From IMG/VR virus record IMGVR_UViG_3300028706_000553: a stretch of DNA of 64,000 nucleotides, one strand, 5' to 3'. The notes under the pieces were generated by a model. The model was given only the letters and a program-made list of their open reading frames with translations, was not told the origin of the DNA and searched no databases. Every line of letters starts with the position of its first letter. Within the stretch, counting starts at the first letter, position 1. Positions 1-64,000 of this stretch are shown here, piece by piece. The translations under genes and the position numbers were made by a program. Origin of the DNA: a virus.

Positions 1-1
1 T

Positions 2-2512
2 ACACCTTACAATAGTAGTGATGCCGGCAGAGTAGAAATAACACATTGGTTCATAGAACATGATCAAACTAATGCTTTGAACGAAAGTACTAAAATTGCA
101 CCTTGGTATCCGAATGTAATCGCAGAATATGTTATTCCAGGTCACTATGAAGGAAATGAATGTACAGGACATAGCGCCGGCGGTGGAGTTTCCCTACACG
201 GTAAGGATTCACACTATAATACAGAAAATAGATGGAACCCTCAAACTTCGACTAATGCAGCTGGGACATATGCGGGCGCACAAAGACCACCGGAAACTTT
301 CTGGGGTCTAGGTGGAGACGGTAATCCAAGTCTAGTACGTAAAGGTGGATTTGAATATTGGCCAGAAATAGGTATATTAGGAAAATATACTTCACCGGAT
401 GGTAATGAAACAATGCCATTAGTTACCACTCATGTAAGTTATGGTGAAGAAGAAGTTGAATTAATCGGTGATGCTACTATAACTGTAATAAGTTGGAAAG
501 AGCCTACACTGCCTATAAGAATGGCAACCGCGTCATTACCAAATTTAACTAGTGTTGATACATATGTTAAATTAGATGAGAGTAGGGTAAAAATACAACC
601 ATTTGATAATATGTCCATTGATAGACAAACTGTACATTGGCCAAATGCTGCAGATCGTTTAATCGCGGTAACAGTTTCAAGCACTGATTTTCTTTTTGAT
701 GGCGTAAACATTAATGATAGTGCATGGTCAAGAAAACTTATCAAGGGTGTAACATATCGTTTTAATCAAGAAGATAGTACTAATTTAGGACACCCATTAA
801 GATTTGCAAATCTTCTTGACGGTAAACATGCTGCAGGATATGTAGAAGCAACAAATCAATATCCTTATACTGCAGTTGGCACACCAGGAAGTGGTGGATC
901 ATATGTTGATTTTAAAATTCCAGATTTTGATGTAGCACATGTTGATGGTTCTGGTAGCTGGAGTAAAAATGATACAGTATGGGCTTATTGTCATAATCAT
1001 TCAAATATGGGCGGCCCAGTAAAAATAGAAGAGAAGATAGTAGTTAATGGTTCTGAATGGATGCATGTTAAAAAATCTCTGGGTGTTAATACTCCAGATA
1101 CTACTGCTTCCGGAATTTATAGAGATCCAACTTATGAATATGGACAGTCATATGCTAGACCAAAAGATAAGAGATTAAATAATCCATTAAGAACTGATAA
1201 TAAGTTTGAAGTCGCAGTTGCAAATATTAAAGCTGGACATGTTGTAGGATTAAGAACGGATGGGACAATACAACAGGTATATCAAACAGGGAATGTTTGT
1301 TTCCCAAGAATCAATTATGTTCATTCATTATTAGGAATAGTTCAATCAGATGGCGCTGTTGGGGAATTTGTTGAAGTTCATGATACTGATTCAACAGAAG
1401 AAAAAGTTTGGGATCTAGTACCTGGTGCTGAATATTATCCTAATTATAGTGCAAATTCTGCGAATCTTCAGGAAGAGGCATATGTTACAACTACTCCTCC
1501 TACAATAACTTCTGCAGATGCTCTTGATAGAATTAAATTAGGAAAAGCAGACACAAAGGATTCATTAAATTTATCTTTTCCTAGATGGGAGATATATACT
1601 TATCAAGCACATGAAAATTTAGTAGAAGGAAATGTAGTAGGTTTAATGTCTAATGGTAAGGTACAAAAAGTTTTCTGTGAAGTAGATGGAACGGCTAAAC
1701 CTCAATTAGATGGCGTTCACTCATTACTTGGTATAGTAAAAGCGGATTGTTTACTAGGAGATTGGGCTGAAATAATAACAAAAGATCAAACTCACGAGAT
1801 GGCAGCATTCTTTCAAGGTGCAGACACAAACTTTACATGGGCAACAGATACAGATCTTTATGTTGATTATAGAGATGCTTCTATAAAGCTAAATGTAGCT
1901 TATAGCAACCATCCACTTAATAAGATTGGAAAGTCACTTGCTGGACAACAAGGTACGGAACAGACGGTATTAGTGACATGCGATATACCGACACATGGAA
2001 CATATTCGCCTACATGGGATAAAACGAAAGCTAGTTGGCCATGGAATACTTATTGTAGAGTATCCACAGTTCCACATTTAGATGATATAGTAGGCGATAG
2101 CACAATAGAAGAATACGCAGGACTTGGTATAGAATTAACTATGCCACAGAATGATCACCCAGTAGAAAATCTTGAATCTGGGCAGAGCATATTATTTGAT
2201 GATATAAATATTATACTAGAAGAAGCAGATGGGATGCTTCTCGAAGATGGTGATGAAGTATTAGTAGAAGATGGTACAACTGATGCAACATCTGCCATGG
2301 GTAAATTAAAAATCGAGAATGATTATCTCTTATATGAAGACCTTATAAATACAGGTAGTGACTATAAACGTATTAATATATATAGTAGGTTTGATGCTAA
2401 ATATATTGTAGGTAATTATACCACAAGTAGTTTTAATGTACATGAGCGCGCGAATAAATACTTCCCGGAAGGACGTAGTGATCACGCAGCTCAACATGCA
2501 GTTTTAGAGTAA
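2..2512 (+). CDS. Large baseplate/structural protein, C-terminal part (gp7-like by position); 5'-truncated by the window edge
   Basis: The frame is open from position 2 (TPYNSSDAG...), upstream of the TTG at 77. It lies directly before gp8. Contains a YRFNQEDSTNLGHPLRF...YCHNHSNMGG module typical of marine T4-like structural proteins. Confidence 0.6.
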   Translation, partial: TPYNSSDAGRVEITHWFIEHDQTNALNESTKIAPWYPNVIAEYVIPGHYEGNECTGHSAGGGVSLHGKDSHYNTENRWNPQTSTNAAGTYAGAQRPPETFWGLGGDGNPSLVRKGGFEYWPEIGILGKYTSPDGNETMPLVTTHVSYGEEEVELIGDATITVISWKEPTLPIRMATASLPNLTSVDTYVKLDESRVKIQPFDNMSIDRQTVHWPNAADRLIAVTVSSTDFLFDGVNINDSAWSRKLIKGVTYRFNQEDSTNLGHPLRFANLLDGKHAAGYVEATNQYPYTAVGTPGSGGSYVDFKIPDFDVAHVDGSGSWSKNDTVWAYCHNHSNMGGPVKIEEKIVVNGSEWMHVKKSLGVNTPDTTASGIYRDPTYEYGQSYARPKDKRLNNPLRTDNKFEVAVANIKAGHVVGLRTDGTIQQVYQTGNVCFPRINYVHSLLGIVQSDGAVGEFVEVHDTDSTEEKVWDLVPGAEYYPNYSANSANLQEEAYVTTTPPTITSADALDRIKLGKADTKDSLNLSFPRWEIYTYQAHENLVEGNVVGLMSNGKVQKVFCEVDGTAKPQLDGVHSLLGIVKADCLLGDWAEIITKDQTHEMAAFFQGADTNFTWATDTDLYVDYRDASIKLNVAYSNHPLNKIGKSLAGQQGTEQTVLVTCDIPTHGTYSPTWDKTKASWPWNTYCRVSTVPHLDDIVGDSTIEEYAGLGIELTMPQNDHPVENLESGQSILFDDINIILEEADGMLLEDGDEVLVEDGTTDATSAMGKLKIENDYLLYEDLINTGSDYKRINIYSRFDAKYIVGNYTTSSFNVHERANKYFPEGRSDHAAQHAVLE

Positions 2513-26018: not shown

Positions 26019-26399
26019 ATGAGTATATTGAATAGAAGTAAACGTCAAGGTGACGATAAAATAAATACTGTTAAGGAATTGATTATTACATCAGAAGATA
26101 AATTATGGGAAAGTGATCCAATGAAAGCATTGACATTTGAAGGTACGGAACGTCGCAAAAAATTGAACTGGTGGACAAGAACATTTTTATCCATTGTTAT
26201 AGTTCTTACTTTTTTATTCTTAGTGTGGTTACTCTTTATGGAGGACCTGCCTGATGCATCTCGCGATTTAATAAATATAATGACCGGGGCGTATGTGGCG
26301 GTACTCGCCAAAGCAACGGACTACTGGTTCAAAGATAAAGATGATCCAGAACACAAAGAAACAGAACGAGAATTAGCAAAAGATGCTAGCGTAAGCTAA
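26019..26399 (+). CDS. Two-TM membrane protein, holin-like
   Basis: TM segments FLSIVIVLTFLFLVWLLF and LINIMTGAYVAVLA, DYWF motif, charged termini. Confidence 0.55.
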   Translation: MSILNRSKRQGDDKINTVKELIITSEDKLWESDPMKALTFEGTERRKKLNWWTRTFLSIVIVLTFLFLVWLLFMEDLPDASRDLINIMTGAYVAVLAKATDYWFKDKDDPEHKETERELAKDASVS

Positions 26400-56849: not shown

Positions 56850-58082
56850 ATGAAAATTGTAATCATTGGAGGTGGTAATGCTGGTGTATGGACAGCATTA
56901 CATTATGGACACTGGACACGACACCTTACAGACATTGAAGTAGAATTAATACATGACCCCGAAATTGATTCATTTCCAGTAGGTCAGGGTACGACATTAG
57001 ATGTGGTTGAATTATTGTGGTTAGCATGCGGTACTGATTGGTATCATAATGAAATCCGAGCCACACCAAAATTAGGTATCTTATATGAAAATTTTAGTAA
57101 GGAAAATCCAAATATATATCATACATTTCCTTTCAATTCTATTGCAATGCAAATGGATCCAAAATATTTACAGGGATACATATTAAATTCTGGATTGTTT
57201 AATGTAAAAGAAGAAAATGTTACTGATCTTGATACTGTAGATGCTGATGTTATTTTTGATTGTAGGGGAAATACTAAAAAGGATGATATTGAATATGTAC
57301 CATTATACAGTCCAGTAAATTCGGTTTTATTAGCATTAGGTCCGAGCCCAACTGATCCTCAACTATGGAGTAGGCATGTAGCAACACCTGATGGTTGGAC
57401 ATTTGTAATTCCAAACACTACAGATACTATTTCTTATGGTTATGTTTATAATGCAGATATCACTCCTCTGGAAACTGCCAAGACTAATTTTAGGGAACTT
57501 TTCCCGGAAGCTTCAGAATCTTACAGTAAACATTTTGACCACAAACAGGAAGTGGTTAATTTACCATTTGAATCATATATAGCAAACGAACCTGTACGAA
57601 TAGACTCTAATGGAAGAAAAATAATATTAAATGGTAATAGATTATCATTTCTTGAACCGATGGAATCTACTGCAATAGGATTTTATCTGGAAGTGGCTAT
57701 AAAAACTTTTGATTGGGTTATTAATAGAGACCCCTTTTTATCCCCGAAAGCAGGGTTAGAGATGAAGGTTTTTCACTCTAAAGAAGTAATAACCAATATC
57801 CATAAAGAATTTCATGAAATACAAAAATTTATTTTATGGCACTATACAAAAGGATCCGTATATGATACACCATTTTGGAAGGCTGCCCAAACAAAAACAA
57901 CTACTGTATTTGAACAACCAGATGAAAGATTTCAAGAGATAGTTAATTTAGCAAAATCGATTGATAGTACGGATTGCCGTGCTTTACCAACTCCCGCGGG
58001 CGGCCCTCCTGTAACATACGGTCAATGGCCTCCATTATCAATTAAAACATGGTATGACAAGTACATACAGAGCCCTGAATAA
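56850..58082 (+). CDS. Flavin-dependent (tryptophan) halogenase-like protein
   Basis: IIGGGNAG FAD motif, ATPKLGI (catalytic-Lys motif), GWTFVIP (WxWxIP variant), FLEPMESTAI. Confidence 0.82.
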   Translation: MKIVIIGGGNAGVWTALHYGHWTRHLTDIEVELIHDPEIDSFPVGQGTTLDVVELLWLACGTDWYHNEIRATPKLGILYENFSKENPNIYHTFPFNSIAMQMDPKYLQGYILNSGLFNVKEENVTDLDTVDADVIFDCRGNTKKDDIEYVPLYSPVNSVLLALGPSPTDPQLWSRHVATPDGWTFVIPNTTDTISYGYVYNADITPLETAKTNFRELFPEASESYSKHFDHKQEVVNLPFESYIANEPVRIDSNGRKIILNGNRLSFLEPMESTAIGFYLEVAIKTFDWVINRDPFLSPKAGLEMKVFHSKEVITNIHKEFHEIQKFILWHYTKGSVYDTPFWKAAQTKTTTVFEQPDERFQEIVNLAKSIDSTDCRALPTPAGGPPVTYGQWPPLSIKTWYDKYIQSPE

Positions 58083-58093
58083 TATAAAATATA

Positions 58094-59533
58094 ATGTGTG
58101 GTTTTTTTGGTATAAGTGATCGTTCATTAGTTAAAACAGATTTTCAAGATATAAATGAAAGAGGCGAAGATAATTTCACTTTCATTGAAAATAACGTTTT
58201 AATACATCAAAGTGTTTTATCTGTTACCGGCATTTTCCCAGGCCAGCATGTATTTGATGCAGGACATTTTCACTTTACCTTTACGGGAGAGATTTATAAT
58301 GCACCTACAAAAGGCTATTCAAATGATACAGAGTGGTTAGCAGAGAAGATTGCAAGAGAAGATTATAATTTTGATGATGTAAACGGCCAGTATGCTATTT
58401 CAGTGTATGATAAGAAAAAACAAACAATAACCTTGATTAGAGATCCAGTTGGTCAAGTTCCTTTATTTTATTATAATCATAATTGTCTTATCTATAGCAA
58501 TACTATAAAGTCAATTGCTACTACTATTGGTGCTAAATTAGATAAAACTTTTATTAAAAAATGGCATCAGCTAAGACATTATACATTAGACAATACACAT
58601 TATAAGAAAATTAAATTATTTCCTAAGGGGTTGATAATAACTTATAACATGCGTGGTAGAGCTCTTAAATCGCGCGTTATTAGACCTAAAAGAATAAACG
58701 ATGGCAATGTATACAGTTTATTAAAGAATATGCAACCCGCATATTCGAGTCATCGAGCTAATTGTGGAATAGTTTCAGGTGGAGTAGATAGTTCTGTTGT
58801 ATCAGCTCTTTTTAAAGATAACTTAGATTGTTATGTAACGACTATTAATGAAGATAAGTGTTGGGCTTCAGCAGATATTAAAAAATATGGATTTCCAACT
58901 TCCTTAGTAGAAGTTAAAAATGATGAAAAACAATGGTGTGAAGCGGCTATAGAATATATTCAAAAATCTTATATGATTCCATATACCTGGAGTTATGTTG
59001 GTTATTATATAATGGGTAAATCAATGAGTCCACGTGTAAAAGTAATGCTGACCGGTGAAGGAGCAGATGAAATTTTCGGTGGGTATGATGTATATAATAC
59101 TAATAAACTTTCAAAGTATTCACTAAGAAAAGATGGAAATGGTTTGAATGATAAATACAAACAGCAGGTATCAAAACAAGTCTCAAAATTTAATAATGTA
59201 GCACAAGCAAATAAGTATTTGGATCAACGATCCTTTCTCCCCTGTGCGGCAATTGGCGCTAATTTAGCATTAGGAATGAGTTGCATAGAGTCACGAAACC
59301 CCTTTTTGGATCATTCTATATTCTACAATGATGCCTTTGTAGAAGATATAGGAAAACAACGATTAATAAAAATATTCAAAGATGTCTTCAATTTTGACCC
59401 ACCAAAGAAACAAGGTTTTTCAGGGTATATGAATGAATTGTATAATTATGTCAATAATACTGAAATAACAAATGACCCTAAAGATATAAGTCTTTGGAAA
59501 AATGCTTGTTATCAAATTATGGAGAATGTATGA
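58094..59533 (+). CDS. Asparagine synthetase B-like amidotransferase
   Basis: N-terminal MCG, FTGEIYN, RDPVG, SGGVDSS, LTGEGADEIFGGY, ESRNPFLD. Confidence 0.88.
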   Translation: MCGFFGISDRSLVKTDFQDINERGEDNFTFIENNVLIHQSVLSVTGIFPGQHVFDAGHFHFTFTGEIYNAPTKGYSNDTEWLAEKIAREDYNFDDVNGQYAISVYDKKKQTITLIRDPVGQVPLFYYNHNCLIYSNTIKSIATTIGAKLDKTFIKKWHQLRHYTLDNTHYKKIKLFPKGLIITYNMRGRALKSRVIRPKRINDGNVYSLLKNMQPAYSSHRANCGIVSGGVDSSVVSALFKDNLDCYVTTINEDKCWASADIKKYGFPTSLVEVKNDEKQWCEAAIEYIQKSYMIPYTWSYVGYYIMGKSMSPRVKVMLTGEGADEIFGGYDVYNTNKLSKYSLRKDGNGLNDKYKQQVSKQVSKFNNVAQANKYLDQRSFLPCAAIGANLALGMSCIESRNPFLDHSIFYNDAFVEDIGKQRLIKIFKDVFNFDPPKKQGFSGYMNELYNYVNNTEITNDPKDISLWKNACYQIMENV

Positions 59534-60696: not shown

Positions 60697-61110
60697 ATGC
60701 CGAAAATATATGATAATGTGGGGATAAATTATAATAAAGGTACTAAACGTGTTAACTCTGTAGCTCCCGGCTGCACAATTGAATACGAAGCAGATATCTA
60801 TGAAGAAAGAGATAAGAGAGTTCGAAAAGCTTCAAGACATCGTTCGCAAGAGACCAACGCAGCATTATTGGCTTTCAAACGAAGTCGCGAACAACTCGGA
60901 ATCCAAAGACCAGGAGACATCGAGGCCTCGCCAGGATTTACTGTCAAAATTACTTCGATGGCTGAAAAAGACCTGAGAGGTTGGAATACAGGTAAGGAAA
61001 AAACAACAGGGGATGTTCCCAGTGGTTTTACTATTGCCCCTGCTTATAATAAAGGCGCATATCAAGTAGTACCTTCTACTGATACAGATGCATACACACA
61101 TAGGAAATAA
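60697..61110 (+). CDS. Conserved T4-like hypothetical protein
   Basis: IAPAYNKGAYQVV motif. Confidence 0.6.
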   Translation: MPKIYDNVGINYNKGTKRVNSVAPGCTIEYEADIYEERDKRVRKASRHRSQETNAALLAFKRSREQLGIQRPGDIEASPGFTVKITSMAEKDLRGWNTGKEKTTGDVPSGFTIAPAYNKGAYQVVPSTDTDAYTHRK

Positions 61111-61112
61111 GT

Positions 61113-61277
61113 ATGATTAGCTATTCAACAGAATTGTTATATCATTTTAATTGTGGTGATTGTAAGAATTGGTGGAGTTATGCTTCAACAGAAGATTACA
61201 AACCACACGTAATGCATTGTCCTCATTGTGGGGAAATGGATAAAATTAAACCTATAGACAATAAAGAAGATGAGTGA
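61113..61277 (+). CDS. Small zinc-ribbon-like protein
   Basis: 54-aa ORF missing from the track, with CGDC and CPHC motifs. Confidence 0.6.
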   Translation: MISYSTELLYHFNCGDCKNWWSYASTEDYKPHVMHCPHCGEMDKIKPIDNKEDE

Positions 61278-61590
61278 AGAAATTAAAATTTTAAAGTTGA
61301 GTACAGGTGAAGAAGTAATTGCTAAGATTAACGAATTAGAAGATTCTTATGAAATGATAGAAGCAGTATCATTTCGATGGGGGATTGAATATGATGCTGA
61401 CTTAGGGCGAAATGTTGAAAGATTGCAGCCAGGCTCATATCCAATTAATTCAGCATTAGGTCGTTATGAAATTAAGAAAGATCATGTATTGGTAACAGCA
61501 CCTCCACGTCCGGAAGCACTTGCAGTTTATCATGGATTTGTAGCAAGTGTGTTAAATTATAATTCGGGTCAGCCAAAAGCAAATTCTTGA
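61270..61590 (+). CDS. Hypothetical protein (Sm-like fold pattern)
   Basis: IKILKLSTGEEVIAKI N-terminus common in T4-like phages. Confidence 0.55.
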   Translation: MSEEIKILKLSTGEEVIAKINELEDSYEMIEAVSFRWGIEYDADLGRNVERLQPGSYPINSALGRYEIKKDHVLVTAPPRPEALAVYHGFVASVLNYNSGQPKANS

Positions 61591-61621
61591 TAAATAAAGT
61601 ATAATATAGAAAAGGATTCTT

Positions 61622-61813
61622 ATGAGAACTCGATATGCAAGTGTAGGCACTGCTCATTTAGGGCATCCAAAAAATGACGTGGAAGAATCTACAAAAGAAT
61701 ATGCTAAATCTCTTGAGAAAATAGCAAATGATAAAGCATTAAAAATGCTTACTAAATCTGAAAGAGCAAATCTTCTGAAGATTAGGGATTTACTCGCTAA
61801 AGAGGAGAAGTAG
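61622..61813 (+). CDS. Hypothetical protein
   Basis: 63 aa, coupled to iscU. Confidence 0.45.
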   Translation: MRTRYASVGTAHLGHPKNDVEESTKEYAKSLEKIANDKALKMLTKSERANLLKIRDLLAKEEK

Positions 61814-63192
61814 TGGCGTATAGTGAAAAAGTTGTAGATCATTTTACGAACCCTAAGAATGTGGGAAGTCTTGATAAAAACGATGTTAATGTAGGAACTG
61901 GCCTTGTCGGCGCACCTGAATGTGGCGATGTGATGAAACTCCAAATTAAAGTAGATGATAATCAAAACATAATTGATGCAAAGTTTAAGACATTCGGTTG
62001 TATTGGATCTAATAGTCCAATTGCAACTCCTAACGGATTTAAAAATATTTCAACTCTTTCGGTAGGAGAGGAAATTTGGGCTTGGAATGGAAAAGAAGTT
62101 GTAAAAAATACTATTTCTAAAATAAAAACAAAAGAAGTTGATTATAGAGATTTATTAAGAATTGTTTTTGAAAAAGGAAGACAGCCTATAATTTGCTCCA
62201 AAGATCATATTTGGTGGGGGTCTGACAATAAGCCGATTGAAGCCATAGATTTAGAAGCTGGAAAAGAATTATTAGAAATCACTGAAAATGAAATTCGTTC
62301 TTTAAATAATGTAAGACAACAACAATGGTTAAAAGATAAAAATTCTGTTAATATATCGGAACGTAATAAATTGGGTTTGATGAAACAAAACACCCTTCCT
62401 CAAAATCAAAAAGGATATAAACATACAGATGAAGCTAAACTAAACCACTCAATCGCTTCAAAAAAAGTGTGGAAAAATCCTGAATATAGAAAAAATTGGG
62501 AAAGGGGAATGCAGGGGGCAGCTCAAAATAGACCAACTAAATTAGAAATTGAATATATTAATTTATTTGAAAAACATAAATTAGATGTAAGATATATTGG
62601 TGATGGTAGTTTTTGGTGTGGTTCTTCTCATCTAAATCCAGATTTTAAAGTAAATGGCCAGAAAAAAGTAATAGAAGTTTATACTTCAAAGCTTCCTAAA
62701 TTTATGATGGATAGAAGTGATGAGAATTGGATTGTAGAAAGAAAAGAAAAATTAGAAAACGCGGGATTTAAAAGTTTGTTTCTTGATATAAAGAACATTG
62801 AAAATTCGATACCTGAAGTAACTAAATTTATTCATAACGGATTTAAAATTAAAAAAATAAGTCCAATAGAAGATAAAAGACAATTAAGAGGGCAAGAAAG
62901 AAATGGTGATTTGGTTAAACTTTATGATTTATCACTAAAAGAAGGAGCCAACATATTTTTTGTTCATAGGGCCATGAGTCATAATTGTGGATCTGCAATT
63001 GCAGCATCATCATTGGCTACAGAATGGGTAAAGGATAGACACGTTGATGCCGCTATGGAAGTAAATAATACAGAGATTGTCGAAGAACTTTCTCTACCAC
63101 CGGTTAAGATTCATTGTAGTGTATTAGCTGAAGATGCAATAAAAGCAGCGATTGCAGATTATAAACAAAAACAAGAAGGTATTGGGCCATGA
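61813..63192 (+). CDS. iscU: Fe-S cluster scaffold IscU interrupted by an intein
   Basis: YSEKVVDHF.NP.NVG, GAPEC37GDVMKLQI, FKTFG|CGSAIAASS, LPPVKIHCSVLAEDAI. Removing residues 63-391 gives a 130-aa IscU. Confidence 0.95.
   Translation: MAYSEKVVDHFTNPKNVGSLDKNDVNVGTGLVGAPECGDVMKLQIKVDDNQNIIDAKFKTFGCIGSNSPIATPNGFKNISTLSVGEEIWAWNGKEVVKNTISKIKTKEVDYRDLLRIVFEKGRQPIICSKDHIWWGSDNKPIEAIDLEAGKELLEITENEIRSLNNVRQQQWLKDKNSVNISERNKLGLMKQNTLPQNQKGYKHTDEAKLNHSIASKKVWKNPEYRKNWERGMQGAAQNRPTKLEIEYINLFEKHKLDVRYIGDGSFWCGSSHLNPDFKVNGQKKVIEVYTSKLPKFMMDRSDENWIVERKEKLENAGFKSLFLDIKNIENSIPEVTKFIHNGFKIKKISPIEDKRQLRGQERNGDLVKLYDLSLKEGANIFFVHRAMSHNCGSAIAASSLATEWVKDRHVDAAMEVNNTEIVEELSLPPVKIHCSVLAEDAIKAAIADYKQKQEGIGP
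61999..62985 (+). mobile_element. Intein (329 aa) with internal endonuclease domain
   Basis: Begins C-I-G-S-N-S-P-I (block A), has CSKDH (block B His), ends LYDLSL...FFVHRAMSHN followed by Cys+1; internal KGYKHTDEAK (NUMOD3-like) and PDF...IEV motifs. Confidence 0.92.
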
Positions 63193-64000
63193 AACGTTTT
63201 ATAGAAACATTAGAAGAGCCAGCAGAATATAATGAATTGCGTGATATTATAGAGTCAAAACTCACGAGTGAAGAAGTGTTCCAGCATCATATAGTTCAGG
63301 GAAACACTGAAAAAGGTAAAGTGGCGCACACCGGAACGTTGAAACAAATGCAAAAAAAGATAAGAGACCCCAAAACGGGCCCAAATCACGTTCTTGTAAA
63401 AACCCGGCATAAACTAAAAACAGGTGATACTTGGAAAAAACACATGCATGCCGAGAGTCTAGACACAGTGAATTCACTCAGAAGACCTCAATATACTATT
63501 AAAAACACAAAAACTGGTCAACATTATAGTACAAGTAGATATCAGGATGATGGAAAATTAAATAAGATTCGTAAAGGGGGAGGTGACCATAAACATGCCG
63601 CCCATTACAAAGATGGAAAACAACTTGAGGAAAGCCAGAATCTACAAGCTAAAATGGCATTAGATGATGCAGGAATACCATGGACAATGAAGAGAAATAG
63701 GATAACTGTTAAGAAAAAAGATAAAAAGAAAGCTCAATTAGCATGGGAAAAATCTTTCAAAAAAGGTGGATGGCCTAGTCTTAACATAGAGGACAATTCT
63801 CCTGTAATTGAAATAATAGGTGAAGAAGATATGCAAGAAGCGTTTTTCAAAGTCAAGATTCCAGATATTGCACAACCTACGTTTGTGGAAGCTGGTAGCG
63901 AATCACAAGTTAAAATGTCTTTGAGAAAGATTCTGAGACCAGATAGTATGAAAGAACTAGAAATTGAAAAGGTTACCCCTACTGCAATGAAAAAGATGTA
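63189..64000 (+). CDS. Lys-rich modular protein, possible head-internal protein; 3'-truncated
   Basis: ATGA-coupled to iscU; open to the window end; starts MKRFIETLEE; basic modules separated by Glu-rich linkers. Confidence 0.55.
   Translation, partial: MKRFIETLEEPAEYNELRDIIESKLTSEEVFQHHIVQGNTEKGKVAHTGTLKQMQKKIRDPKTGPNHVLVKTRHKLKTGDTWKKHMHAESLDTVNSLRRPQYTIKNTKTGQHYSTSRYQDDGKLNKIRKGGGDHKHAAHYKDGKQLEESQNLQAKMALDDAGIPWTMKRNRITVKKKDKKKAQLAWEKSFKKGGWPSLNIEDNSPVIEIIGEEDMQEAFFKVKIPDIAQPTFVEAGSESQVKMSLRKILRPDSMKELEIEKVTPTAMKKM

What the first reader, a model, noticed from the sequence alone, without database searches (positions are those of the whole stretch)
61999..62985. Intein inserted at the Fe-S-ligand Cys63 of a phage-encoded IscU
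Seen: the IscU motif KTFG-CGSAIA is split by 329 aa that start with Cys and end His-Asn, so the +1 nucleophile is the cysteine equivalent to E. coli IscU Cys63. Cys37 and the HC motif are intact and splicing yields 130 aa. Established: inteins favour essential catalytic sites, mostly in replication proteins, and the mycobacterial SufB intein in an Fe-S assembly protein is redox- and metal-sensitive. I do not recall a described IscU intein, especially in a phage auxiliary gene. Inference: scaffold activity strictly requires splicing, which could be gated by redox or metal state. Intein persistence implies the phage iscU is under selection and present in intein-free form among co-infecting relatives.
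Basis: partly seen in the sequence, partly recalled or inferred. Interest (0 to 1): 0.85.

Follow-up and report, generated by a model that had tools for sequence, protein, structure and literature searches.

The report
Mobile intein splitting phage IscU scaffold
A marine T4-like phage carries its own iron-sulfur scaffold gene (iscU) that is interrupted, exactly at a cluster-binding cysteine, by a genuine self-splicing and recently mobile intein with an unusual Vsr-type nuclease. I found no paper describing this element, yet it is common in phages, some bacteria and giant viruses.

Summary
ORF 61813-63192 (+) is an IscU (TIGR01999, 203 bits, above the cut-off). Its KTFG/CGSAIA motif is split by 329 codons (61999-62985) that run from Cys1 to His-Asn, followed by Cys+1, which is E. 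coli IscU Cys63.

The insert folds as a Hint domain (Z 16-19 against solved inteins). It encloses a Vsr-like nuclease whose closest solved relative is the I-Bth0305I catalytic domain (Z 10.9).

It is not unique:
- At least 118 of the 120 best 90%-identity clusters carry the same insert at the same site.
- 47 IMG/VR contigs have it.
- It also occurs in a bacterial iscS-iscU-iscA operon and in a giant-virus-like contig. Those two also carry a second intein at Cys37.

It was mobile recently. Another phage (L212) holds a 91.5%-identical intein inside much more diverged exteins (third-codon identity 86% against 48%, p = 1e-12). The nuclease domain has omega 0.13. A near-identical strain variant (L211) has the nuclease precisely deleted, leaving a 157-residue mini-intein.

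Nine literature searches found no description. A 2009 paper states that Vsr-like nucleases were not then known inside inteins.

Redox or metal gating is untested speculation. This scan has already noted IscU inteins on at least 15 other genomes, mostly LAGLIDADG inteins at Cys37.

The parts
61802..61807 (+). Shine-Dalgarno-like GAGGAG before the GTG start of iscU. The upstream ORF's TAG stop shares one base with the GTG.
   Evidence: Read directly from the sequence.
61813..61998 (+). N-extein of IscU (62 aa), with Cys37 and Asp39, ending KTFG.
   Evidence: NifU_N and TIGR01999 first stretch, residues 2-64. Aligns to residues 1-63 of solved IscU/ISCU chains.
61999..62298 (+). Intein N-terminal splicing region (residues 1-100): Cys1 and block B S-K-D-H (His70 invariant).
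   Evidence: Profile match to the gp41-1 intein, E 2e-4. Hint fold Z 16-19. Invariant C1 and H70 in 40 homologues. omega 0.17 against L212.
62299..62523 (+). Helical linker, probably DNA-binding (intein residues 101-175). It looks NUMOD3-like by eye but no model detects it.
   Evidence: Helices at 109-124, 144-158 and 161-172, with lower pLDDT of 58-82. Pfam NUMOD3 gave no hit even at E <= 10. Free-standing relatives carry NUMOD3 in 34 of 60 cases.
62524..62853 (+). Vsr-like (I-Bth0305I / EDxHD-related) nuclease domain (intein residues 176-285). Conserved residues: E183, D215 (NPDF), K223, E226 (IEV), R239, H279.
   Evidence: VIA-align gives 3r3p Z 10.9, NGO0050 Z 9.3 and Vsr Z 8.9 over residues 178-283. 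A family profile hits 3r3p at E 3.4e-6. Invariant residues. omega 0.13.
62854..62985 (+). Intein C-terminal splicing region (residues 286-329): block F YDL, block G ...S-H-N.
   Evidence: Hint fold alignments span residues 1..329. H328 and N329 are invariant.
62986..63192 (+). C-extein of IscU (68 aa plus stop). It starts with Cys+1 (= Cys63) and contains LPPVK and His-Cys. Its TGA stop overlaps the next ORF's ATG.
   Evidence: NifU_N and TIGR01999 second stretch. Window-protein residues 392-455 align to residues 63-126 of solved ISCU. Sequence read.
62290..62805 (+). 516-bp (172-codon) segment that is missing in frame from a 99.5%-identical strain variant (L211), leaving a 157-aa mini-intein. 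The end points are ambiguous within a 10-bp direct repeat.
   Evidence: blastn: L211 1-620 matches window 61670-62289, and L211 611-1160 matches window 62796-63345. Protein comparison.

Best explanation
The 987-bp insert is a bona fide class-1 homing intein. A Hint splicing domain is interrupted by an in-frame helical DNA-binding-like linker and a Vsr-like nuclease related to I-Bth0305I.

It sits in the auxiliary iscU gene of an uncultured T4-like phage, at the codon of Fe-S ligand Cys63. That cysteine serves as the +1 splicing nucleophile.

Inferred mechanism:
- The 459-aa precursor is translated.
- Cys1 and Cys+1 carry out standard protein splicing and release a 130-aa IscU.
- The free intein nuclease cuts uninterrupted iscU alleles at the conserved FKT(F/Y)G-CGSAIA coding sequence during co-infection, so the element copies itself in.

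It is best read as a selfish element that is tolerated because it splices. It persists in phages, a few bacteria and giant viruses by repeated horizontal transfer, and it decays by loss of the nuclease.

The phage IscU itself plausibly supplies Fe-S clusters during infection. Earlier notes of this scan report about 19 radical-SAM genes in the same phage.

Shown here: the anatomy, the folds, the recurrence, the recent transfer, purifying selection and the deletion variant. Inferred: splicing activity, nuclease activity and its target, and the role of IscU.
For: - IscU identity and exact junctions.
- All class-1 splicing residues are present and invariant in 40 homologues (C1, S/T67-x-x-H70, D310, H328, N329, C+1).
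- Model pLDDT is 87.5. Hint fold has Z 16-19, rmsd about 2 A, over about 131-137 residues spanning 1..329. Foldseek E is 4.5e-6 to the gp41-1 intein, and the sequence profile gives E 2e-4.
- The nuclease domain is closest to I-Bth0305I by fold (Z 10.9) and by profile (E 3.4e-6).
- The same insert at the same site is in 118 of the 120 top clusters and in 47 IMG/VR loci.
- Homologue contexts are phage-like, bacterial iscS-iscU-iscA and giant-virus-like.
- Recent transfer: against L212 the intein DNA is 91.5% identical, while the C-extein is 72.8% and the N-extein 82%. Third-codon identity is 283/329 in the intein against 41/86 in the exteins (Fisher p = 1e-12). Nothing else of L212 aligns near the window's iscU.
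- Purifying selection: omega 0.21 for the intein and 0.13 for the nuclease domain.
- Intein presence changes at least 41 times (at least 8 on well-supported branches) on a tree of 230 exteins.
- An in-frame nuclease-deleted variant exists in the same phage population.
- The window is a T4-like myovirus: terminase, sheath, portal and major head protein.
Against: - No experiment has been done. Splicing and DNA cleavage are inferred from conservation only.
- The window's own sequence does not reach the gathering score of any Pfam Hint or intein model (PT-HINT 16.7 bits against 27.7).
- The nuclease clade lacks the canonical W-H general-base histidine of Vsr and I-Bth0305I at the aligned position, so its chemistry is uncertain.
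- The transfer evidence rests on one pair of contigs. The L212 iscU has a frameshift in its N-extein.
- The extein tree is short (132 columns) and poorly resolved.
- The deletion variant is a single 1.16-kb contig.
Confidence: 0.85

Rival explanations
1. Conditional protein splicing. The intein has been co-opted as a redox- or metal-sensitive switch. Cys1 and Cys+1, together with the nearby ligands Cys37 and Cys106, would bind Zn or Fe or form a disulfide, so that IscU is released only under suitable conditions during infection.
For: - Both nucleophiles are cysteines, and the +1 residue is itself a metal ligand.
- Conditional splicing of the mycobacterial SufB intein is published (PMC8891592, listed; the Topilina 2015 reference is cited).
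- Related inteins sit at the third Cys of the CxxxCxxC motif of QueE-like radical-SAM proteins.
- Other inteins sit at IscU Cys37.
Against:
- Cys+1 is required chemically by Cys-type inteins, and conserved catalytic sites are the usual homing targets. Landing on ligand cysteines is therefore expected for a purely selfish element.
- Presence is patchy, with many uninterrupted viral alleles.
- The signs of recent transfer fit parasitism better than a fixed regulatory device.
Confidence: 0.1
2. The intein still splices but no longer homes. The Vsr-like domain would be catalytically dead, because it has lost the general-base histidine, and be retained only as a structural or DNA-binding module on its way to deletion.
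For: - The W-H motif that aligns with I-Bth0305I His213 is absent in this clade, and the residue aligned with Asp222 is not acidic.
- Nuclease-deleted mini-inteins exist (L211, P0141, P0146, and the Fischerella MAG L214).
Against: - The nuclease domain has omega 0.13, the lowest of all intein parts.
- E183, D215, K223, E226, Y228, R239 and H279 are invariant or nearly so over 40 inteins that are 45-88% identical.
- The intein is much younger than its exteins in L212.
- The closest free-standing relatives also lack W-H yet are numerous, which suggests an alternative active site rather than decay.
Confidence: 0.12
3. The insertion does not splice. The phage iscU would then be a disrupted pseudogene, or the insert a bacterial intein-like (BIL) domain that only cleaves.
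For: - The top structural match is a BIL domain (2lwy, Z 18.9), effectively tied with true inteins.
- Pfam intein models fall below threshold on this sequence.
Against: - Every splicing residue is intact.
- The insert is in frame and colinear with uninterrupted homologues.
- Exteins are highly conserved, keeping all ligands and LPPVK.
- The Hint parts have omega 0.17-0.31.
- The deletion variant preserves the frame.
- Homologues such as P0137 pass the Intein_splicing and Hint thresholds.
Confidence: 0.03

Closest known systems
Mycobacterium tuberculosis SufB (Pps1) intein
   Same: It is an intein inside an essential Fe-S cluster assembly protein and uses a Cys1 nucleophile. It is the published model for stress-sensitive splicing (PMC8891592).
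   Different: - The host protein is SufB of the SUF system, not the ISC scaffold IscU.
- To my knowledge its insertion site is not a cluster-ligand cysteine, and its endonuclease region is LAGLIDADG-type. Both points are from memory.
- It is cellular and actinobacterial rather than phage-borne.
gp41-1 and other split inteins of 'fractured genes' in marine phage metagenomes (Dassa et al. 2009, PMC2677866)
   Same: - gp41-1 is the closest solved relative of the splicing domain by sequence (E 2e-4) and by Foldseek.
- Both come from a phage and ocean-metagenome setting.
- Both are associated with Vsr-like homing endonucleases.
   Different: - In the fractured genes the nuclease is a separate ORF between two split-intein halves.
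- Here it is fused in frame inside a contiguous intein. That paper drew this arrangement as a hypothetical step and said it was not then known in inteins.
- Its host genes were replication and nucleotide-metabolism genes, not iscU.
I-Bth0305I, prototype of the EDxHD (Vsr-like) homing endonuclease family (Taylor et al. 2011, PMC3239194; PDB 3r3p)
   Same: - It is the best structural match of intein residues 180-283 (Z 10.9, 94 of 98 residues).
- It is a profile-level sequence relative (E 3.4e-6).
- The acidic residues equivalent to E170, D196 and E206 are kept as E183, D215 and E226.
- Relatives carry NUMOD modules.
   Different: - I-Bth0305I is encoded in a group I intron.
- The window's clade lacks the His213 (W-H) general base and has no acidic residue at the Asp222 position.
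- Pfam NUMOD3 is not detected in the window's own intein.
   Same: - They share the host protein and lie directly before a cluster-ligand cysteine.
- Cys37-site inteins co-occur with the Cys63 intein in P0019, P0023, P0042, P0046 and P0141.
- Earlier scan notes list at least 15 genomes.
   Different: - The earlier cases are mostly LAGLIDADG inteins at the first ligand, Cys37. One is at the His-Cys site. They occur in CPR bacteria, archaea and a sulfur bacterium.
- This one is at Cys63, carries a Vsr-like nuclease and is mainly viral.

Membership tests
Intein (class 1, Hint superfamily) | In-frame insertion in a conserved host protein whose removal restores colinearity with uninterrupted homologues | tested here: met
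   Two-stretch NifU_N and TIGR01999 matches. The 130-aa product aligns without a gap to 120 uninterrupted viral IscU genes and to solved IscU chains.
Intein (class 1, Hint superfamily) | Cys/Ser at position 1, T/S-x-x-H in block B, penultimate His, terminal Asn, and Cys/Ser/Thr at +1 | tested here: met
   C1, S67-K-D-H70, H328, N329 and C+1 are present. C1, H70, H328 and N329 are invariant in 40 homologues.
Intein (class 1, Hint superfamily) | Hint fold formed by the N- and C-terminal parts around the inserted domain | tested here: met
   Model pLDDT 87.5. VIA-align Z 16-19, rmsd 1.6-2.4 A, 123-137 residues against many solved inteins, spanning 1..329. Foldseek E 4.5e-6.
Intein (class 1, Hint superfamily) | Curated Pfam Hint or intein model above its gathering score | tested here: inconclusive
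   The window sequence scores only 16.7 bits on PT-HINT (cut-off 27.7). Homologues with the same insert, such as P0137, P0150 and P0160, pass Intein_splicing and PT-HINT.
Intein (class 1, Hint superfamily) | Protein splicing demonstrated | not testable with these tools
   This needs expression of the precursor and detection of ligated exteins.
EDxHD / Vsr-like homing endonucleases (I-Bth0305I) | Vsr-type restriction-endonuclease-like catalytic fold | tested here: met
   Residues 178-283 match 3r3p at Z 10.9, 3hrl at Z 9.3 and 1cw0 (Vsr) at Z 8.9.
EDxHD / Vsr-like homing endonucleases (I-Bth0305I) | Detectable sequence homology to family members | tested here: met
   A profile of the domain plus 59 free-standing relatives hits 3r3p at E 3.4e-6. 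Vsr or DUF559 Pfam models match 5 of the 60 members each. The window domain alone found nothing in the PDB.
EDxHD / Vsr-like homing endonucleases (I-Bth0305I) | Composite catalytic motif E-D-x-H-D (E170, D196, E206, H213, D222 in I-Bth0305I) | tested here: not met
   E183, D215 and E226 are conserved. The W-H histidine is absent from this clade and its nearest free-standing relatives. The position aligned with D222 is not acidic in the window.
EDxHD / Vsr-like homing endonucleases (I-Bth0305I) | NUMOD-type DNA-binding modules beside the catalytic domain | tested here: inconclusive
   NUMOD3 is found in 34 of 60 free-standing relatives. It is not detected in the window's linker even at E <= 10. 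The linker is helical.
EDxHD / Vsr-like homing endonucleases (I-Bth0305I) | Site-specific cleavage of the element-free allele | not testable with these tools
   Only indirect evidence is available: the intein is far younger than its exteins in L212 and its distribution on the extein tree is patchy.
IscU Fe-S scaffold (TIGR01999 / PF01592) | Curated equivalog score, the three Cys ligands, Asp39, His105 and the LPPVK chaperone motif | tested here: met
   TIGR01999 scores 203.2 bits against a cut-off of 192.4. C37, D39, C63 (+1), LPPVK and H-C are all present and aligned to solved IscU/ISCU.

The most novel reading that the evidence does not exclude
This family of contiguous inteins bearing a Vsr-like nuclease preferentially occupies Fe-S ligand cysteines: IscU Cys63, and the third Cys of the CxxxCxxC motif in QueE-like radical-SAM enzymes. 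Its splicing would respond to metal or redox state. Large phages and giant viruses would thereby gain a post-translational checkpoint that couples release of the Fe-S scaffold to conditions in the infected cell. In this phage that would gate cluster supply to its roughly 19 radical-SAM enzymes.
Probability: 0.07. Interest if true: 0.8.

Novelty: new variant of a known kind. Interest (0 to 1): 0.52.

Why it matters
Inteins are textbook parasites of replication genes. An abundant and apparently undescribed intein allele in the ISC iron-sulfur scaffold widens the known host range of inteins. It sits on a cluster ligand and is shared by T4-like and jumbo phages, bacteria and giant viruses, which points to gene flow between very different viruses.

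Its architecture supplies the 'missing' form predicted by the fractured-gene model of Dassa et al. 2009, which drew an in-frame Vsr-like nuclease inside a contiguous intein only as a hypothetical step.

Practical uses:
- A compact natural mini-intein pair (329 aa and 157 aa, otherwise identical) for studying how an intein tolerates loss of its nuclease.
- A possibly new nuclease specificity.
- A clean system for asking whether splicing at a metal-ligand cysteine responds to metals or redox state.

For phage biology it confirms that the auxiliary iscU is kept functional under selection.

Tried and rejected
- Megablast of 61000-64000 against GenBank phages gave no match. tblastn found only 8 phage records, all with intein-free iscU.
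- A single-protein scan of GTDB genomes with the intein found nothing. The alignment-based rescan found only two MAGs (Crocinitomicaceae, and Fischerella with a mini-intein). Pattern-based scans are lower bounds.
- No whole genome is held for this window, so other intein copies or Fe-S genes elsewhere in the phage could not be searched. Within the window there is only this one copy.
- phmmer of the nuclease domain alone against the PDB found nothing. Homology needed a family profile.
- Pfam NUMOD3 is not detectable in the window's linker.
- I looked for syntenic close relatives with an empty site through the downstream gene. This found only five contigs that share a 139-nt patch and have no iscU.
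- Nine full-text searches and four targeted paper reads found no IscU/NifU intein description. The supplement of the 2016 intein survey is not held, and InBase could not be consulted.
- The pseudogene or BIL-domain reading was considered and rejected; see the rival explanations.

Full report
**1.

- The + strand ORF 61813-63192 encodes 459 aa.
- It starts at a GTG that shares one base with the upstream ORF's TAG stop, with GAGGAG 5-6 nt before it. Its TGA stop overlaps the next ORF's ATG.
- Residues 1-62 and 392-459 together match NifU_N (2e-48) and the IscU equivalog TIGR01999 (203.2 bits, cut-off 192.4), each in two stretches.
- Between them lie 329 codons, 61999-62985. They begin TGT (Cys) and end CAT-AAT (His-Asn), and are followed by the TGT of CGSAIA.
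- In alignments to solved E. coli IscU, Cys392 corresponds to Cys63.
- Cys37, Asp39, LPPVK and the His-Cys pair are intact.
- With the insert removed, the 130-aa product aligns end to end without a gap to 120 uninterrupted viral IscU genes.

**2. The window is a phage**

PHROGs identify large terminase, tail sheath, portal, scaffold, the T4-type major head protein, a helicase and an SbcC-like protein in one orientation. This agrees with earlier notes of this scan, which call it an uncultured marine T4-like phage with a large radical-SAM island. I did not re-test that island. No close relative is in GenBank phages, and no whole genome is held.

**3. The insert is an intein**

- All class-1 elements are present: Cys1, block B S67-K-D-H70, block F Y-D-L, and block G ...S-H328-N329 followed by Cys+1.
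- C1, H70, H328 and N329 are invariant in 40 homologues that are 43-88% identical.
- An AlphaFold2 model built on that alignment has mean pLDDT 87.5.
- Against 48,161 solved chains, the two ends of the insert together give Z 16-19 (rmsd 1.6-2.4 A, 123-137 residues) to inteins and Hint domains.
- Foldseek gives E 4.5e-6 to the gp41-1 intein, and a four-sequence profile reaches gp41-1 at E 2e-4.
- One weakness is that the window's own sequence stays below Pfam's Hint thresholds. Homologues with the same insert do pass them.

**4. The inserted domain is a Vsr-like nuclease**

- Residues 180-283 match the I-Bth0305I catalytic domain best (3r3p, Z 10.9, 94 of 98 residues). Next come NGO0050 (Z 9.3) and E. 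coli Vsr (Z 8.9).
- HMMER against 1.84 billion representatives found 1583 relatives. Many are free-standing proteins of 170-350 aa that match only intein residues ~105-290.
- NUMOD3 is present in 34 of 60 of these free-standing proteins.
- A profile of the domain plus those proteins hits 3r3p at E 3.4e-6.
- Using the residue numbers of Taylor et al. 2011 (PMC3239194), the equivalents of E170, D196 and E206 are conserved as E183, D215 and E226.
- The W-H general-base histidine is missing from this clade and from its nearest free-standing relatives. The Asp222 position is not acidic in the window.
- I therefore call it related to, but not a demonstrated member of, the EDxHD family.
- Pfam NUMOD3 is not detectable in the window's own linker.
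- Dassa et al. 2009 (PMC2677866) found Vsr-like nucleases only as separate ORFs between split-intein halves, in introns or standing alone. [quoted passage not shown]
- I found no later paper describing such an intein.

**5. It is widespread**

- Among proteins of 252-804 aa, 718 clusters matched. Of the 120 best, 118 carry an insert of 157-384 aa at the same FKT(F/Y)G | C...HN | CGSAI site.
- IMG/VR holds at least 47 such loci (35 were found with an intein-only query).
- Contexts on long contigs are phage-like. They include Gp23, tape-measure protein, RNR, ribosomal protein S21, IF3 and ClpX, often with an IscA gene next door, on contigs of 104-353 kb.
- One homologue lies in a bacterial iscS-iscU-iscA operon.
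- Another lies on an 85-kb contig with PARP_regulatory, myosin, SET and protein-kinase genes. Its ISCU is of the eukaryotic type with a presequence-like N-terminus, so I read the contig as a giant virus.
- Achromatium sp. WMS3 and an alphaproteobacterial MAG also carry it.
- Among GTDB species representatives, the pattern scan found only two MAGs.
- Several homologues carry a second intein at Cys37 (GAPxC | ... N | CGDVM).
- Relatives of the same intein sit in family-B DNA polymerase. They also sit in QueE-like radical-SAM proteins, exactly at the third Cys of CxxxCxxC.

**6. It was mobile recently**

- L212 is a different phage contig. Of its DNA, only iscU aligns with this part of the window.
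- Its intein is 91.5% identical to the window's at the DNA level. The flanking C-extein is 72.8% identical and the N-extein 82%.
- Third-codon identity is 283/329 inside the intein against 41/86 outside (Fisher p = 1e-12).
- Synonymous divergence is 0.26 in the intein and saturated in the C-extein.
- omega is 0.21 for the intein and 0.13 for the nuclease domain.
- On a FastTree of 230 exteins (110 with the intein, 120 without), intein presence needs at least 41 changes. At least 8 of these fall on well-supported branches, against about 76 changes for shuffled labels. The alignment is short and the tree is weakly resolved.
The nearest is 77-80% identical in protein to the window's extein.

**7. 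A decay intermediate exists**

Contig L211 is 99.5-99.7% identical to window 61670-62289 and 62796-63345. It lacks 516 bp between 10-bp direct repeats. This removes 172 codons, the linker and the nuclease, in frame, and leaves a 157-aa mini-intein. Other mini forms occur in P0141, P0146 and a Fischerella MAG. This is the pattern expected from the homing cycle: invasion, fixation, then nuclease loss.

**8. Interpretation**

The best-supported reading is a selfish but splicing-competent homing intein in a phage auxiliary iscU that is kept functional. Because the insert separates Gly62 from the ligand Cys63, at the face of the protein where the three ligands meet, a precursor that cannot splice should not scaffold a cluster. 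This follows from known IscU structures and was not tested here.

Landing on conserved cysteines is what a Cys+1-dependent homing element is expected to do.

**9. Novelty**

Nine literature searches and four targeted reads found no IscU/NifU intein description. InBase could not be consulted.

This scan has already reported IscU/NifU inteins on at least 15 other genomes. Most are LAGLIDADG inteins at Cys37, and one is at the His-Cys site. The host gene is therefore not new to the scan.

New here:
- the Cys63 site;
- the in-frame Vsr-like nuclease;
- the mainly viral distribution, including giant viruses;
- the direct evidence of recent transfer and of nuclease loss.

I rate it a new variant of a known kind, of moderate interest.

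Noticed in passing
L040:8001-9893 (P0046), also P0042, P0141, P0146: An 85-kb giant-virus-like marine contig (PARP_regulatory, myosin head, SET, protein kinase) encodes a eukaryote-type ISCU. It has a presequence-like N-terminus and two inteins, one at Cys37 and one at Cys63, and sits next to a DnaJ-like gene.
   Followed up: partly
L042:6630-10511 (P0019): A bacterial iscS-iscU-iscA operon whose IscU carries two inteins, at Cys37 and Cys63. In the relative P0023 the Cys37 intein has an HNH_3 domain.
   Followed up: partly
P0160, P0154, P0169, P0145: Relatives of the same Vsr-nuclease intein interrupt QueE-like radical-SAM proteins. In three of the four (P0160, P0154, P0169) the insert lies exactly at the third cysteine of the CxxxCxxC [4Fe-4S] motif (...C-x-x | C...HN | CDT...). 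Another relative interrupts a family-B DNA polymerase (P0171).
   Followed up: partly
L212:1080-1270: In the phage contig with the 91.5%-identical intein, the iscU N-extein is split by a frameshift just before the Cys37 codon, giving a 39-aa ORF and a 430-aa ORF. It may be an assembly error or a real disruption.
   Followed up: no
window 63482-63620: A 139-nt stretch inside the ORF downstream of iscU is 97.8% identical in five otherwise unrelated IMG/VR contigs (L215-L219) that have no iscU nearby. I have no explanation for this conserved patch.
   Followed up: no
window 56850-59533: A few kb upstream of iscU lie two tailoring-type enzyme genes: a tryptophan-halogenase-like flavoprotein (PF04820, 2e-24) and an asparagine-synthase-like amidotransferase (PF00733 with GATase domains).
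   Followed up: no
window 26157-26362 vs L212:2499-2704: The small gene that lies just downstream of iscU in L212 has a 70%-identical DNA counterpart in the window 36 kb away from iscU. This shows a different gene order in the two phages.
   Followed up: no
L002:7395-7715, L003:7409-7750, L212:709-1065: In many large-phage relatives the intein-bearing iscU is adjacent to an IscA-type gene (PF01521). The window has no such gene next to its iscU.
   Followed up: partly
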